A stretch of DNA of 62,936 bases, filler included, from Collodictyon triciliatum (Eukaryota): assembly GCA_043381765.1 (NCBI GenBank). It is 8 parts of 8 records of this genome, joined end to end, with 100 filler letters (N's around TTAATTAATTAA, not from the genome) between each part and the next. Parts side by side here need not be neighbours in the genome. Positions count along the whole stretch, not along the records: positions 9,164 to 18,227 come from JBHJMP010003179.1; 7 more parts are not named here. One strand, written 5' to 3'. A program made the position numbers and the translations under genes. The notes beneath the pieces are model-generated. The model worked only from the letters and a program-made list of their open reading frames with translations. It ran no database searches and was not told the DNA's origin. Shown here piece by piece: positions 9,733-18,030 of this stretch (the stretch's first letter is position 1; every line of letters begins with the position of its first letter).

Positions 9733-12700
9733 TCATTCTTGTTTCTTTGAAATCTCCTGCAATATGTGTTGGTTCTGAGGAATCCACGTACGAAGATAAC
9801 TACAAAGTTGTCGATCGATTAATTTTATATAAAATGAGTTCGTTCACTAAAGAAAAAATAACGAGCCTGTGATAATTGATAATTTATCGGAAAGGATAAA
9901 AAAAAAAAAAAAAAAAAAAAATAAAAAAAAAACAAAAAACAAAATTAAAAACAAAAGAAAAAAAAAAAAAAAAAAAAACGCTACGGATAACACCGTCATT
10001 ATATTCCATCACGAAGAAAAAAATATATGTGGGAATGCATGTATTTATATATATTACCATTTCAATACTATTGTAGGTAAAGCTGTGGTAGCTAATACGA
10101 TTATTAACATGAGCCAATAGGTTGGGTCAGTAAGTAAGCGAGCTGCGATGATAATTTTAAATCTGGTCAAGGAAATAAAAGCAATCACCATGGGACGTAA
10201 TGAGTTCTTTGGCAAATAGTGGACAAATTTGTATGATTAGCATCTGGTGAATGATAAAGCTATCATTCTATTTCTGTGACTTATGTTACAATATGCACAT
10301 AATACTTTAGGCATGTCAGCAATCGTGGATACAGTAAACTTTGTGCAAAGCAGAGTTATGACCATGGTTTTCGCCAAAGGAGATATTCCAGGCCAGAAAT
10401 AAAAATGCGCTGATAGATACGGATATAGGTGCATAAATCGACCAATTATCAATAAATAGCATGTAGTGTACCAAGGTCACGGTGACACATGCAGAACTCA
10501 CACATAGGCTTATATCCCACAGGTTATATGTCTACAAAAAAGTAATGACATTTTTTCCAGATACTTTACGATTAGGAAGTTAAAAAAAGTACAAAACAAT
10601 TCATTTTATCATTTTCAAACGTTTATAATTTGTTCACTACAGTAACATCGAACATATGTAATGATTTTACATGACCAAGGTCGTTGATTGAGTACCCAAA
10701 ACTCATGTAACAGAAGAAGAAGATAACTAGACACAATGATTATATTACATGTGTTCTCATTTTTTTTATTTATATTTAGAAGACTCCGAATTCAATCTTT
10801 CTTTCAATCTTTTTATCCTTTTTTTTTTTTATCTTTTATCTATTAATCTTTTCATGACCTCAAATGACATTAGATCGGCTAAATGAGCTCATGTTTGAAA
10901 ATGATATTTCTAAGTTATTTAAAATTTTGAAACTACCTAGTGAATGGTACACAGAGAATATCATCGCATACCCCACTTGAACCAAGCCGAAGGGGTGGTC
11001 GTAGTGAAGAAATTTATGCAGCTGGATATTCTATCCAAAGTATTGGTAAAGAACTTGTTTTAATAAGTCAATCTTTCTTATTTTATATCATTATATTTGT
11101 TCTTTTATTATTATTATTATTATTATTATTATTATTATTATTATTATTATTATTATTATTATTATTATTATTATTATTATTATTATTATTATTATTATTA
11201 TTATTATTATTNNNNNNNNNNNNNNNNGTAGTAGTAGTAGTAGTAGTAGTAGTAGTAGTAGTAGTAGTAGTAGTAGTAGTAGTAGTAGTAGTAGTAGTAG
11301 TAGTAGTAGTAGTAGTAGTAGTATTTAATTGGTTTATATAAGTTAAATTTTATAAACGCATTACTATGGGAAGCAACAGCAATATGACATTACCCCTAAA
11401 ATTGTCTCATCATTTAAATCTCTTTCTACTAATCCATATAAAATTGGTGGCAAAGACGTAAATGCGATATTGTACATTGAAAGAATCCAGCTGTTGTGGA
11501 TAGTCTATACAGCAGTAAATTGGAGTTATTTATTTATGGGTATCATTTCGATTATATTATGACATGTATTTGACAGAAAAATGAATGAAAAAAATATCAT
11601 TACAGTGGCGATTGTTTCAAGAAAAATATGTTGGTTTGATGAATTTTTTATGACAATAATATGTAACCTGAGTAGGTGGCATAATATTTTTAAAAATCAT
11701 CGTACCTGTCCAGAGAATCCATCATAAAATGCAAAGCATATTTGCGTCATCGACAACAAGGTACATTTATATATACTAAAAGCAAAAGTCAAATTATGAT
11801 TTTTAGATATAGTAAAATAATTCATATGTATCGAAGGATATGCATGTTGTTTAAAATAAGATTGAATTTCACCAAAACAAAACAACACCAGTAACGCGTA
11901 TGTGGGCATGTCTGCCTTGAAGGAAAATGAGAGGAGCCAAATCCGTATGAAAGTTAAGGATATGCTCCAATGCTGCAATTATATAAAGCAGTACACATGG
12001 CAACAGCACTTTAAGGCACATGTAGGATATTTAAAGTCAGGAACATAAATATCCGCTTCGATAGCGACGCTGTGTGCCAAGCTTCTACTCATAGCGATAC
12101 CGATGCTCGAAGACTGGGTTAAGGTATAAATGATATTTTAGAATATATTTCTTGCTTTGAATCGAATAAAGGGTAAAAAAGAATATTTTTCTTAATAATG
12201 CACTATCCATAAATAAAAGGAAAACGAGAAAACCACAGAGGAATTTTCCTTTTCTGATTTATTTGAAGTTTTTTTTTTCATGAGTCTTTTTATGAAAAGA
12301 GAAAACCTGAAGCATCTCTGTGTTTGAATTGCCAGCCCCAATCGCTAAACATACTCTGCCTTTTCCTTTTTTCACTAACGATGTGACCATCGCCTTCTGT
12401 ATGGGCGAGGTCTGATAGCAAAGAACTGAACGGCTGATTACAGCTAATTCAAGAAACTGTGCAGCATGATCCCTCAATGCAAAACCCAGAGATTTCCCAT
12501 CAATCATGACGCCGATTTCAGATGTTTTTATCAGGTTCTATTTGTTTTATTTTTTTATACGATTGAAGCACGTGAAACTAATATTAAAAAATTAATATGA
12601 ATGGTAAATGATAGAACATTCGACCGCGTCAATTTGATGTGATGAAGAAATTATACGTTATAATCATCATAAAGCTCATCCAAAGATTGCTCTAATGCCT

Positions 12701-15700: not shown

Positions 15701-18030
15701 AGAAATATTCAACAATTAAATCGTGGATGTATAATAACGACGCAATTATCCTGAAAAATTTAATCAATATCGCATAATAGGTATTTGGGGGATGTCTCAC
15801 AATCTGAAACACCATACCTTTGGAATGAATTGTTTAGCAGAAAGCAGAATCTTCATATCAGATATTAAAAGTTCTCCGTTGTATTGAAAAACATGTATAT
15901 TAGGATGTTCACTTTGAATAGTTCCTTGTATTGCTGTCACTGAGTGCAGATCTTTGGCAATAGAAGTCTGTGGCTTAGGGTATATCGGTCTCAAGTGATG
16001 TTGTCTATTGTTTAATGTAGATAATAATATCGAAGTAAAATTAATGATGTGGAATATGGACAACCGCTAATTCTTTATTACACAATTATATGGGGAAAAA
16101 CTTGCTGATTTACTAAATGATATTTGCTCTCATATCACTATTATTGTATATTTATACCACACCCGTCAAGCGAGTGTGTATCTATGTAACAACTGGAATT
16201 ATCCCCTGATACAGAAATGATGATGACATCAGCTGGAACAACTTCGTTCTTTTCAATGAAAAGAATATCCCCAGCAGACAACTCTTTACTCAACATTCGG
16301 GTGATCTGACCATCTCGAACGACTTTGTGGAATGTCTCATTTACACTGCGGTCTATCTTGCTTCGCCTCTGAGAAAAGGCAAAAATAAAGTGATAATGAT
16401 AATGATAATGATAATGATAATGATAATGATAATGATAATGATAATGATAATGATAATGATAATGATAATGATAATGATAATGATAATGATAATGATAATG
16501 ATAATGATAATGAGAATGATAATGATAATGATAATGAGAATGATAATGATAATGATAATGAGAATGATAATGAGAATGAGAATGATAATGATAATGAGAA
16601 TGATAATGATAATGAGAATGATAATGATAATGAGAATGATAATGATAATGAGAATGATAATGATAATGAGAATGATAATGATAATGATAATGAGAATGAT
16701 AATGATAATGAGAATGATAATGATACGGCCGGTTGTGGGTTGGTAAAGGGGTGGGTCTTCCCTTTTAGACACGCTAAAAGAAAAAGTAAAAGTAATAATA
16801 AAGTAGATGGACGGTCGCTCTAAAATAATTTTTTACATGATCCATTAGAGCTTCCTTAAACATCCCGATGGCCAAAAGAATGAGGAGAGGAATGAGAGAT
16901 AATGCTGGAGGGGTCGTTGAAACATCCGGTACAAGTGAGATGCAAACCACACATGCGAAGAATATATAAGCAGTTCTTTTAAACTGGTTTGGGTGATTGA
17001 AATGAATAAATAAATGAAAAGTATAATTTTGTAAATTTTGATTCAATTTGGCAGTAACCATGTAATTATATCACAAGCTTTCATCAGGCTCCCATTTGTT
17101 TGGGGCGTTTCTTACATAGACACTATGAATGCTTGAAAAAAGTCATACCTGGATATATATACTTCCTGGGATAAATGCGAGTAGAGAGTATTTTGTCGTA
17201 ATTAACTCGTTTGGAGGGTAGTGTTGCTCATTATTATAGTCAGGGTCGTTTAGCTTTACTGTCAACGTGCATTCGTGAGGCTCCATTAAATCCTCTTCTT
17301 CATCCTCGAATCCTATGACAGGGGCTAGGGTAGGGAGGGGATCCAAAATTTATTACATATCCCTGAATTTTATCATATTCCAATCGATGAAACAAAGAGA
17401 AAGCTAACTGAACAGAAATAAACAAGTGATTTAACCTGAGAACCTAAACGGAGGGAGTTTTGTGATTTCCTATTATTGAATTGTGATAATTAATTGCTTT
17501 CGTTTCGAACATATTGCCCATTTGAAAGAATTGAATTACGTAAGAGTTATCTACGAAGAAATATAAAATTAACTTGCAAATGAATCATATTTTTGAATAG
17601 TAATTGTTTTCAGTATATCTTCCATCCGGCTCAGATTAGAAAAAAGAATGGGAATGGTACGGATTATCTACATACTCGTTCCAAATGTTGCACAGCTTTG
17701 TCTTTCAAGTTATTAAGAACCTCTCCTTGGATAACTCCTGCATTCAAGCTCTCTGTCGTCTCGATTGTTGCCTCGTCCTTCGGGCTGTGGTGGGATTCGC
17801 ATGGGATGTGCAACTTTGTTGCGCCAACCTCAACTGTTTTTTGGTTTGCATCCACAGAAGTAGCAGAGTCCCCCGAGGGAGGCTTCGGTCCTGCTTTTAT
17901 GGGTGGAAGAACCCCTGCACGTTCGACCATCATTTGTGAAGGTGAATCTATGTGAATGTTGGGCGATTCCTTGGCACTGGCGGTTTCTTTGCCCTGTAAG
18001 TCCACTGGCCTGGCAGATTATTTGCTGATC
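9733..18030 (-). CDS. P4-type ATPase (phospholipid flippase) homologue with degenerate catalytic motifs; 5' end uncertain
   Basis: YPPNELITTKYSLLAFIP, FKRTAYIFF...IPLLILLAIGMFKEALMD, VPADVIII...CYIDTHSLDG, GSILRNTKSIYAVIVYTGVYTKL, AGISVWVLTGDP, IDGKSLGFAL...TSPIQKAMV, IYKC...FAFYDGFSGQ. Last exon reads YLRTWIPQNQHILQEISKKQE then TGA (9733-9735). Confidence 0.9.
11106..11323. repeat. (TTA)n / gap / (GTA)n microsatellite in intron
   Basis: Direct inspection; includes a short N run. Confidence 0.95.
12154..12179 (+). mobile_element. Family-1 micro retro-insertion
   Basis: GCTTTGAATCGAATAAAGGGTAAAAA flanked by a 14-bp direct repeat AGAATAT(A/T)TTTCTT (12140-12153 / 12180-12193); lies in a P4-ATPase intron. 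Confidence 0.7.
16391..16724. repeat. (GATAAT)n hexamer array with interspersed GAGAAT variants, intronic
   Basis: Direct inspection. Confidence 0.95.

What the first reader, a model, noticed from the sequence alone, without database searches (positions are those of the whole stretch)
9733..18030. Apparently intact but catalytically degenerate P4-ATPase (pseudo-flippase)
Seen after splicing: phosphorylation motif DKTGT is DISGV (14799-14813); actuator DGET is DGQH; N-domain EF..RKRMS and KGAD are TPPHNNNKLS and QTKL; EDKLQ is EQYLH; TGDK is TGDP; CCR is CYQ; the Mg-binding GDGAND is GAGNSN (12322-12339); TM4 PISL is PMSV. The TM segments, the exon phases I checked and the C-terminus remain P4-like and open. 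Known: these residues are needed for ATP binding and phosphorylation/dephosphorylation, and Ile-to-Met at PISL is the ATP8A2 CAMRQ mutation. Inference: a pseudoenzyme kept as a scaffold, CDC50 sink, lipid sensor or passive carrier rather than a decaying pseudogene.
Basis: partly seen in the sequence, partly recalled or inferred. Interest (0 to 1): 0.72.

Follow-up and report, generated by a model that had tools for sequence, protein, structure and literature searches.

The report
Expressed flippase gene lacking catalytic residues
A protist gene of the lipid-flippase (P4-ATPase) kind has kept a full-length reading frame and is transcribed and spliced, yet has lost almost every residue needed to bind and use ATP, and the one messenger form seen breaks the frame midway, so it is either a non-enzymatic flippase relative or a gene that has only just died.

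Summary
The motif substitutions are real and lie at the stated coordinates. A minus-strand P4-ATPase gene of 26 exons fills one 9-kb unplaced contig (9164-18227). Against 17 canonical P4-ATPases it reads DISGV for DKTGT (Asp kept), DGQH for DGET, GAGNSN for GDGAND, TGDP, EQYLH, CYQ and PMSV, and its N-domain nucleotide pocket is degenerate. It keeps only 74-75 of 135 near-invariant columns, where the references keep 129-135. A complete GT-AG, stop-free model of 1043 aa exists (about 1143 aa with a probable first exon). A neutral simulation predicts about 32 in-frame stops for this much change, so the dead motifs arose while the reading frame was under selection. This is not a simple decaying pseudogene.

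Contigs of one public run (X1) show nine splice junctions on the sense strand. Eight are in frame. The ninth (14703 to 14620, after the DISGV exon) gives an immediate stop. In-frame acceptors exist at 14574, 14643 and 14529 but were not seen.

No orthologue was found, so dN/dS could not be computed.

Verdict: this is a long-maintained catalytically dead flippase paralogue. It either still makes protein through an unseen splice form (about 0.45) or was very recently disabled (about 0.35). It is a new variant of a known kind, of moderate interest.

The parts
17672..17933 (-). Probable first coding exon (ATG 17933-17931; acidic/Pro-rich N-terminal tail)
   Evidence: The frame is open for 117 codons. 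It joins in frame by GT..AG to an acceptor at 17324 with a pyrimidine-rich tract. There is no RNA or homology support.
17149..17324 (-). Exon 2 (alternative start ATG at 17286); PhoLip_ATPase_N
   Evidence: PF16209 scores 34.9 bits against a cut-off of 29. The donor at 17149 was found by the profile-to-DNA alignment.
16837..16983 (-). Exon 3 (TM1-TM2)
   Evidence: hydropathy
16163..16368 (-). Exon 4 (A domain; ends ..SLDG, phase 2)
   Evidence: PF00122
15818..16004 (-). Exon 5 (begins QHHLR: DGET read as DGQH)
15456..15656 (-). Exon 6 (A domain end, TM3)
15084..15320 (-). Exon 7 (TM4 with PMSV at 15215..15204; ..EELGR)
14703..14831 (-). Exon 8 with DISGVLR (14813..14793) in place of DKTGTLT
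   Evidence: X1 contig 3 covers 14703-14794 without gaps.
14466..14620 (-). Exon 9 as seen in RNA (out of frame with exon 8: AAT TAA). The in-frame version starts at 14574; 14643 and 14529 are also possible.
   Evidence: Joint 14620>14703; frames; candidate acceptors.
14169..14279 (-). Exon 10 (N domain; SPDE read as IPED)
   Evidence: Joint 14279>14466. The loose end at 14168 matches 13970-13985.
13894..13986 (-). Exon 11 (TPPHNNNKLS for EF.S.RKRMS). An alternative donor lies at 13863.
13691..13770 (-). Exon 12 (RSEG at 13750..13739 where KGAD stands). An alternative acceptor lies at 13745.
   Evidence: no RNA cover
13403..13534 (-). Exon 13
13186..13296 (-). Exon 14 (EQYLH at 13236..13222)
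   Evidence: X1 contig 2 covers 13185-13296.
12929..12987 (-). Exon 15 (TGDP at 12963..12952)
   Evidence: joints
12657..12774 (-). Exon 16
   Evidence: joints
12307..12537 (-). Exon 17 (CYQ at 12420..12412; GAGNSN at 12339..12322)
12045..12113 (-). Exon 18
11873..11964 (-). Exon 19 (TM5 start)
   Evidence: Joint 11775>11873, with 63 letters beyond it.
11706..11775 (-). Exon 20 (..GFSGQ)
   Evidence: joints
11394..11504 (-). Exon 21 (TM6, YN..FTSLPP kept); PhoLip_ATPase_C
   Evidence: PF16212 scores 39.5 bits against a cut-off of 28.3. Joint. The loose end matches 11003-11030.
10937..11030 (-). Exon 22 (TM7)
10671..10726 (-). Exon 23
10333..10531 (-). Exon 24 (TM8-TM9)
10058..10142 (-). Exon 25 (TM10)
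9733..9799 (-). Exon 26, with the stop codon at 9735-9733
9629..9683 (-). Two AATAAA hexamers 50 and 99 nt after the stop (candidate poly(A) signals)
9164..18227 (.). The whole unplaced contig holding the gene, bounded by N44-TTAATTAATTAA-N44 linkers

Best explanation
The locus is a highly diverged paralogue of the P4-ATPase lipid flippases in a freshwater protist. It keeps the whole architecture: the N-terminal tail, TM1-10 and the A, P and N domains in the usual order. In TM4 it keeps the Pro and Ser of PISL, and in TM6 the Asn of the conserved YN..FTSLPP stretch. It has lost the chemistry of the pump:
- no Mg-binding Asp pair (GAGNSN);
- no Lys/Thr next to the phospho-Asp (DISGV);
- Gln for the dephosphorylating Glu (DGQH);
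- no adenine-stacking Phe or Arg in the N domain.

It therefore cannot run the ATP-driven E1/E2 cycle (inferred from the established roles of these residues). The reading frame and the exon-intron structure were kept by selection while these residues were lost (shown by simulation). So for most of its history it served as a non-catalytic membrane protein. My inference is that it is a lipid-binding or partner-binding shell that regulates or senses rather than pumps, like the degenerate flippase modules of alveolate P4-ATPase-guanylate cyclases.

It is transcribed and spliced. I take the frame-breaking exon 8>9 junction seen in one low-depth run to be an unproductive splice form beside an unseen in-frame form (acceptor 14574, 14643 or 14529). 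That last step is the weakest.
For: Family and architecture:
- Pfam N, E1-E2 and C domains hit exon ORFs.
- The profile-to-DNA alignment recovers 25 exons in profile order without any frameshift.
- The spliced model scores 708 bits against an HMM of 17 references.
- 8 of the 10 expected TM segments pass a hydropathy threshold, and all 10 align.

Loss of catalytic residues:
- 74-75 of 135 columns conserved in at least 16 of 17 references are kept; the references keep 129-135.
- 0 of 151 aligned database hits carry GAGNSN, and 136 of 151 carry GDGAND.
- The roles of DKTGT, DGET, the PISL Ser/Ile and the TM6 Asn come from passages of PMC11225554.

Selection on the frame:
- There are 0 in-frame stops, against 76 and 68 in the other two frames.
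- The intron stop frequency of 0.0623 per codon gives P = 10^-29 for an open frame by chance. Exon GC is 0.395 and intron GC 0.272.
- Neutral simulation to 44% residue change gives a mean of 32 stops (minimum 17, 40 runs). At 3% change only 1 of 60 runs stayed open.

Expression:
- X1 contigs carry 7 joints with CT..AC ends, which is GT..AG on the minus strand. Two loose ends match the next exons. 8 of these 9 junctions are in frame.
- The 22 loose letters at 14794 (table 7) match, by my recall, the reverse complement of a template-switching oligo, which would mean cDNA of the minus-strand RNA.

Precedent: flippase modules with altered DKTGT and LDGET in P4-ATPase-guanylate cyclases (passages of PMC13466520).
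Against: - The only exon 8>9 junction observed (14703>14620) gives a stop at the second codon of exon 9. No GT donor in exon 8 is in phase with it. No in-frame form was seen, and contigs keep the commoner path.
- X1 is labelled RNA only as a guess, and its depth is 3.6-5.5.
- X1 laid no contigs on exons 4-7 (14878-16380). Exons 1-3 and 22-26 lay outside the laid stretch.
- No orthologue was found, so there is no direct test of purifying selection or of conservation of the dead motifs.
- Loss at conserved columns is broad, not confined to catalytic residues: A domain 17/26 kept, N domain 21/42, P domain C-terminal part 20/40, TM3-4 3/6.
- One of the two differences listed between the runs and the assembly is non-synonymous, inside EQYLH (13229).
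- The non-catalytic role itself is inference only.
Confidence: 0.45

Rival explanations
1. The history is the same (a long-maintained, catalytically dead flippase paralogue), but the gene has now been disabled very recently. A one-base change in exon 8, or a new upstream AG at 14622-14621, shifted the frame. The transcript then encodes only TM1-4 plus the A domain and about 45 residues of the P domain (416 aa from ATG 17286), or is degraded. On this reading it is a transcribed pseudogene at the earliest stage, or a truncated product.
For: - The only junction seen is the frame-breaking one, in a run that differs slightly from the assembly, so it is not an assembly slip.
- The 46 nt between 14620 and 14574 are open in the homologous frame of exon 9. 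This fits an ancestral acceptor at 14620 and a lesion in exon 8.
- A self-trained acceptor score does not favour 14574 (2.0) over 14620 (2.3).
Against: - Everything else is intact: 0 stops, 24 other GT-AG introns, 8 of 9 seen junctions in frame.
- Under neutrality a stop is expected after about 1% residue change, so the time window for catching this state is narrow.
- Three in-frame acceptors lie within 100 nt.
- Contigs drop rarer splice forms (tool note).
Confidence: 0.35
2. An ordinary decaying pseudogene: the motif losses are neutral decay, and the open frame is chance or my ascertainment.
For: - There is broad loss at conserved columns in all cytosolic domains.
- One frame break is seen in RNA.
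- The gene lies on a short unplaced contig with microsatellites and an N gap.
- No orthologue was found.
Against: - Neutral change of this extent gives 17-43 in-frame stops in 40 simulations, and 0 are observed. The chance of an open frame from intron-like sequence is 10^-29.
- The profile aligns end to end in exon order with no frameshift, even at a low frameshift penalty for the C-terminal third.
- The exon/intron GC contrast is kept.
- Nine splice junctions are used.
Confidence: 0.04
3. A working ATPase with unusual motifs: the Asp of DISGV is still phosphorylated, with Ser for Thr as in some HAD-type phosphotransferases.
For: The Asp is kept and position +2 is Ser. TGD is kept, and so are the G-x-G of GDGAND and the QKA stretch.
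Against: - Both Asp of GDGAND, the Lys of DKTGT, the Glu of DGET and the N-domain Phe/Arg are replaced together.
- None of the 151 aligned relatives lacks both Asp in this way, and 136 have GDGAND.
- The need for these residues is established for P-type ATPases (passages; the rest is recalled).
Confidence: 0.03
4. The frame is restored at translation by a +1 ribosomal shift at AAT-TAA-A just after the exon 8>9 junction. Skipping one base there enters the homologous frame of exon 9.
For: Reading AAT, skipping T and continuing with AAA ATA TTA gives exactly the frame that aligns with P4-ATPases. A sense codon followed by TAA is the kind of site used for obligatory +1 shifts in Euplotes (recalled, not checked here).
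Against: - Any one-base frame offset in AT-rich sequence meets a stop quickly, so the pattern is expected by chance.
- Nothing suggests that this organism uses frameshifting. The gene otherwise follows the standard code with long introns, unlike Euplotes.
- No second case was examined.
Confidence: 0.02

Closest known systems
Canonical P4-ATPase lipid flippases (Drs2p, ATP8A1; nearest full-length database relative is Cavenderia fasciculata DFA_10186, then Andalucia godoyi, Mantamonas and Thecamoeba proteins)
   Same: - The domain order, TM layout and Pfam domains match.
- Exon 17 aligns to Drs2p 893-964 at E 5.8e-11.
- Single exons reach up to 61% identity with the Cavenderia protein (names).
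- GFSGQ, YN..FTSLPP, LRNT and the Pro/Ser of PISL are kept.
   Different: - Overall identity to the 17 references is 23-28%, where the references share 31-38% (minimum and median) among themselves.
- 60-61 of 135 near-invariant residues are replaced, including those of DKTGT (Asp kept), DGET, GDGAND and TGDK and the N-domain pocket.
- The RNA form seen is out of frame after exon 8.
Flippase modules of P4-ATPase-guanylate cyclase chimeras (P4GC) of alveolates and some stramenopiles, several of which have altered DKTGT/LDGET (PMC13466520, passages read)
   Same: Both are a P4-ATPase fold kept under selection while the phosphorylation and dephosphorylation motifs are altered. The paper itself raises loss or change of ATPase activity with a supporting or sensing role.
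   Different: - Here there is no cyclase. The frame stops at 9735-9733 after a P4-type C-terminus, AATAAA follows, and only 570 bp of contig remain.
- The nearest relatives are stand-alone P4-ATPases of amoebozoans and other protists.
- Here the Asp is kept, whereas some P4GC lose it.
Engineered E-to-Q mutants of the DGET motif (dephosphorylation-deficient flippases; recalled, not checked in a paper here)
   Same: The natural sequence has Gln at the position of the catalytic Glu (E165Q in my numbering).
   Different: In the mutants the rest of the catalytic site is intact and the enzyme is trapped as a phosphoenzyme. Here the Mg and nucleotide sites are lost too, so phosphorylation itself is unlikely.

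Membership tests
P4-ATPase (type IV P-type ATPase, lipid flippase) | PhoLip_ATPase_N and PhoLip_ATPase_C domains flanking an E1-E2 ATPase core | tested here: met
   On single exon ORFs, PF16209 scores 34.9 bits (cut-off 29), PF00122 scores 35.4 (cut-off 28.1) and PF16212 scores 39.5 (cut-off 28.3). The spliced model scores 708 bits against an HMM of 17 references.
P4-ATPase (type IV P-type ATPase, lipid flippase) | Phosphorylation motif (S/T)DKTGTLT | tested here: not met
   It reads TDISGVLR at 14813..14793. The Asp, Gly and Leu are kept; the Lys, both Thr and the last Thr are replaced.
P4-ATPase (type IV P-type ATPase, lipid flippase) | Actuator motif LDGET with the catalytic Glu | tested here: not met
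   It reads LDGQH, spanning the exon 4/5 junction.
P4-ATPase (type IV P-type ATPase, lipid flippase) | Mg-binding hinge motif GDGAND and TGDK | tested here: not met
   These read GAGNSN (12339..12322) and TGDP.
P4-ATPase (type IV P-type ATPase, lipid flippase) | N-domain nucleotide pocket (EF.S.RKRMS, KGAD) | tested here: not met
   The first reads TPPHNNNKLS. The second reads RSEG, or QTKL/KLEG under the other splice model.
P4-ATPase (type IV P-type ATPase, lipid flippase) | TM4 PISL and the TM6 Asn that contact the lipid head group | tested here: inconclusive
   TM4 reads PMSV: the Pro and Ser are kept, the gate Ile is Met and the Leu is Val. An Asn conserved in at least 16 of 17 references in the YN..FTSLPP stretch is kept. 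That this is the TM6 Asn of PMC11225554 is recalled; roles are from passages of that paper.
P4-ATPase (type IV P-type ATPase, lipid flippase) | Ten transmembrane helices | tested here: met
   All ten regions align to the references. 8 of 10 exceed a mean Kyte-Doolittle value of 1.4 over 19 residues. TM4 and TM6 do not, which by recall is usual for these amphipathic helices.
P4-ATPase (type IV P-type ATPase, lipid flippase) | ATP-dependent lipid transport, usually with a CDC50 subunit | not testable with these tools
   This needs expression and assay.
P4-ATPase-guanylate cyclase chimera (P4GC) | Class III cyclase modules fused C-terminal to the flippase module | tested here: not met
   The stop codon at 9735-9733 follows a P4-type C-terminus. 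AATAAA hexamers begin at 9683 and 9634, and 570 bp remain to the contig end. Caveat: the contig ends there.
Decaying (non-processed) pseudogene | In-frame stops or frameshifts within exons, lost splice sites, no selection on the frame | tested here: not met
   There are 0 stops, and no frameshift is needed in the profile alignment. All 25 introns are GT-AG, and the neutral expectation is 17-43 stops. One splice junction seen in RNA is out of frame, which leaves a very recent disabling open.

The most novel reading that the evidence does not exclude
This would be a stand-alone 'pseudo-flippase': a P4-ATPase shell kept by selection after losing ATP binding, Mg binding, phosphoryl transfer and dephosphorylation. 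It would work without ATP as a lipid-binding sensor or regulator, or as a partner that titrates a CDC50-type subunit. Its output would be set by a choice between a productive and a stop-bearing acceptor right after the exon that carries the dead phosphorylation motif.
Probability: 0.4. Interest if true: 0.65.

Novelty: new variant of a known kind. Interest (0 to 1): 0.5.

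Why it matters
P4-ATPases are treated as obligate ATP-driven lipid pumps. The only degenerate flippase folds I found in print are the modules fused to guanylate cyclases in alveolates and stramenopiles, whose role is still debated.

A free-standing copy that has lost the catalytic residues while the frame stayed under selection would show that the flippase fold has a use apart from pumping. 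It would also be a natural 'dead' protein in which lipid or partner binding could be studied without turnover.

If it proves to be freshly disabled instead, it is a rare snapshot of a long-lived pseudoenzyme at the moment of loss. Either way the claim rests on one locus in one draft assembly and one low-depth run, so its present weight is moderate.

Tried and rejected
Orthologues:
- Three word-indexed searches found nothing. They used the exon 6 ORF with longer candidates and the exon 17 ORF with near and with longer candidates.
- The exhaustive HMMER search with exon 17 gave 921 hits at E <= 1e-3. The best were about 50% identical and canonical at GDGAND.
- The two top rows, P0001 and P0005, are an ankyrin-repeat protein and a bacterial repeat protein that match by chance.
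- The metagenome scan gave one locus at 32% identity.
- dN/dS was therefore not possible.
- No whole genome is held for this window.

RNA:
- The look-up of sequencing runs listed no holder on record as RNA. X1 is RNA only by the tool's guess.
- X2 and X3 (freshwater metagenomes) hold short, identical or near-identical DNA pieces. X4 hit only low-complexity sequence at 14836-14876.
- X1 laid no contigs on 14878-16380. I did not lay 9733-11349 or 16381-18030, to avoid the long microsatellites, so exons 1-3 and 22-26 have no read evidence beyond one loose end.

Gene model:
- My first hand-made C-terminal model used a wrong frame for exon 23 and seemed to need out-of-phase sites. The profile alignment replaced it.
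- The first version of my aligner did not score split codons and chose a junction with a stop. This was fixed.
- In low-similarity parts the aligner disagrees with the RNA: for the exon 10 end it gives 14164, where the RNA gives 14169.
- Acceptors at 11915/11911 for exon 19 were rejected because the X1 contig runs on to 11935.

Other checks:
- An acceptor weight matrix trained on this gene's other 23 acceptors does not separate real sites from decoys (median 2.6 against 0.8; decoy 90th percentile 4.6), so it says nothing about 14620 against 14574.
- Rfam found nothing in the window.
- There is no second P4-ATPase in the window.
- One search was an empty script.

Literature:
- 'P4-ATPase' + 'pseudoenzyme' gave 0 papers.
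- 'P-type ATPase' + 'pseudoenzyme' gave 1 paper. From its listing it concerns ATP1A3 disease variants, so I judged it unrelated without reading it.
- 'flippase/DKTGT/lacks/non-functional' gave no stand-alone case among the 12 papers listed of 130.

Structure and complex prediction were not attempted, because those tools take only unspliced window sequence.

Full report
**Setting**

The window is a chain of unplaced contigs of about 9 kb each, joined by N44-TTAATTAATTAA-N44 linkers. The finding lies in the contig 9164-18227, which holds this one gene and nothing else. The other contigs carry ordinary eukaryotic genes: a Roc-COR kinase, a Myb protein, SNF2 and a PARG-type enzyme. No second P4-ATPase and no Rfam family is present in the window. 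No whole genome is held for it. Earlier notes of this scan on other pieces of the same genome call it a freshwater, flagellated protist. In agreement, two freshwater metagenomes hold short pieces that are identical, or differ by one letter in 108.

**The gene**

Exon-sized open frames on the minus strand hit the three Pfam domains of P4-ATPases above their cut-offs. An exhaustive HMMER search with the exon that carries the GDGAND position gave 921 hits. The best full-length relative by tblastn is a Cavenderia fasciculata P4-ATPase, followed by proteins of Andalucia, Mantamonas and Thecamoeba and by metagenome proteins.

There were 28 hits of 1000-1400 aa. I kept 17 canonical ones and dropped 11: two repeat proteins unrelated to the family, one near-duplicate, and eight that lack at least one exact motif or are partial. 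From the 17 I made a profile and wrote a profile-to-DNA aligner that allows GT..AG introns and frameshifts.

The aligner recovers the exons in profile order and never needs a frameshift, even at a low penalty in the C-terminal third. Together with hand enumeration of junctions, this gives a model of 25 exons from ATG 17286 to the stop at 9735-9733. The model is 3132 nt and 1043 aa, with all 24 introns GT-AG and no internal stop. A probable further 5' exon (ATG 17933, donor 17672, acceptor 17324) would make 26 exons and about 1143 aa. Two AATAAA hexamers follow the stop.

**The observation**

Three qualifications apply:
- The phosphorylated Asp is kept (D-I-S-G-V).
- The residue string standing for KGAD depends on which of two in-frame splice paths is used in exons 11-12. 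The path that fits the profile better reads RSEG.
- The damage is much wider than the named motifs. Of 135 columns conserved in at least 16 of 17 references, the model keeps 74-75, whereas each reference keeps 129-135.

Losses are spread over the A domain (17 of 26 kept), the N domain (21 of 42), both parts of the P domain (6 of 11 and 20 of 40) and TM3-4 (3 of 6). TM5-10 keeps 7 of 9. In TM4 the Pro and Ser of PISL are kept, and the Asn of the YN..FTSLPP stretch is kept; by my recall this is the TM6 Asn that a recent review describes as contacting the lipid head group (passages of PMC11225554). None of 151 aligned database relatives shares GAGNSN, and 136 have GDGAND.

**Is it a decaying pseudogene?**

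No, not over the time in which these residues were lost.
- The coding frame has no stop, while the other two frames of the same sequence have 76 and 68.
- Introns of the gene carry a stop every 16 codons, which gives a chance of 10^-29 for an open frame of this length.
- Exons are 39.5% GC and introns 27.2%.
- In a simple AT-biased neutral simulation started from the model itself, reaching the observed 44% residue change took about 875 substitutions and created 32 in-frame stops on average (minimum 17 in 40 runs). Even 3% change left the frame open in only 1 of 60 runs.

The simulation ignores indels, which would add frameshifts. The loss of catalytic residues therefore happened while the frame was being kept, and that is the signature of a protein with a use other than catalysis. 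This argument is indirect: it is not a dN/dS, and the reference set was chosen by me.

**Expression**

One public run, X1, is labelled RNA only as a guess. It yields contigs at depth 3.6-5.5 that are 99-100% identical to the gene and skip seven introns with GT..AG ends on the minus strand. Two loose ends match the starts of the next exons, so nine junctions are seen in all. A further loose end at 14794 looks, from memory, like a template-switching adapter attached to the 5' end of a minus-strand cDNA.

Eight of the nine junctions agree with the in-frame model. The ninth does not. Exon 8, which carries DISGV, ends in phase 0 at 14703 and is joined to 14620, where the frame reads AAT TAA. The homologous frame of exon 9 would need exon 8 to end in phase 2, and no GT in exon 8 offers that.

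In-frame acceptors exist at 14574 (used in my model), 14643 and 14529. A weight matrix trained on the gene's other acceptors cannot rank them. Contigs keep only the commoner path, so an in-frame minority form is not excluded. No further read-laying was possible.

**What it most likely is**

The shared core of the two leading readings is well supported, and I put it at about 0.8. This is a P4-ATPase paralogue that became catalytically dead long ago, was kept as an open, spliced, transcribed gene, and so acted as a non-enzymatic membrane protein.

Whether it still does is open. I give 0.45 to a living pseudoenzyme whose productive splice form was not sampled. I give 0.35 to a gene disabled very recently, or one now yielding only the TM1-4/A-domain half. 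Small probabilities go to plain neutral decay (0.04), to an odd but active enzyme (0.03) and to a +1 translational shift at AAT-TAA-A (0.02).

The mechanism I favour is inferred, not shown. With the Mg site, the nucleotide pocket and the dephosphorylating Glu gone, the protein cannot cycle. The retained groove residues and overall fold suggest binding of lipid or of a partner such as a CDC50-type subunit, giving a sensing or regulatory role.

**Comparison with what is known**

By descent and fold it belongs to the P4-ATPases. By the family's defining catalytic motifs it fails four tests, so it should be filed as a P4-ATPase-derived pseudoenzyme candidate, not as a flippase.

The nearest described parallel is the flippase module of P4-ATPase-guanylate cyclase chimeras. 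In several lineages those have altered DKTGT and LDGET, and their authors raise loss of ATPase activity (passages of PMC13466520). The present gene has no cyclase and ends with a normal P4-type C-terminus.

Full-text searches for 'P4-ATPase' with 'pseudoenzyme' (0 papers) and 'P-type ATPase' with 'pseudoenzyme' (1 paper, judged unrelated from its listing alone) turned up no stand-alone case. Nor did the motif-based search among its 12 listed papers of 130. The library is partial, so this is not proof of novelty.

**Verdict**

Novelty is a new variant of a known kind, and interest is 0.5.

Noticed in passing
window 9064-9163, 18228-18327, 27390-27489, 36552-36651, 45712-45811, 54861-54960, 61683-61782: The window is a chain of separate contigs joined by N44-TTAATTAATTAA-N44 linkers, which carry stops in all six frames. 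The contigs run from about 9064 down to 9049 bases, so they look sorted by length. Neighbouring genes across a linker are therefore not neighbours in the genome.
   Followed up: partly
window 16389-16722 (intron 3) and about 11090-11330 (intron 21, with a 16-N gap at 11212-11227): Long microsatellites lie inside introns of the gene. One is a CAT/TAT-type array of about 330 bp that stays open in all frames (it reads HYHY.. on the minus strand). The other is a trinucleotide array broken by an assembly gap.
   Followed up: no
window about 14375-14460 (intron between exons 9 and 10): An X1 contig lies within this intron and then runs on for 83 letters unlike the locus (loose end at 14460). It may be unspliced RNA, a chimeric contig or another transcript. 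Its extent is inferred from the depth bins only.
   Followed up: no
window 13229: X1 reads C where the assembly has T on the + strand. On the coding strand this changes Tyr to Cys inside EQYLH, the stretch that stands for EDKLQ. It rests on one contig at depth 3.6.
   Followed up: partly
window 27551-28189 and 33953-36603 (+): Open frames with LRR, Roc, COR-A and protein kinase domains (a Roco-type kinase) lie on the neighbouring contigs. The kinase frame runs up to a linker.
   Followed up: no
window 36604-37932 (+), 43159-43629 (+), 46758-48386 (+): Further ordinary genes lie on other contigs: a two-repeat Myb protein in a GC-rich stretch (0.52), an SNF2-type helicase fragment, and a 542-codon frame with a microbial-type poly(ADP-ribose) glycohydrolase domain.
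   Followed up: no
window 12020-12045 versus 11940-11964, and 13863-13894 versus 13740-13770: At two junctions, reading through the donor into the intron gives a peptide that resembles the same profile segment as the start of the next exon (..VPDFKY.. against ..ILNFHT..; ..GDLSFLTQTK.. against ..GHINILCRSE..). This may be chance or traces of shifted splice sites.
   Followed up: partly
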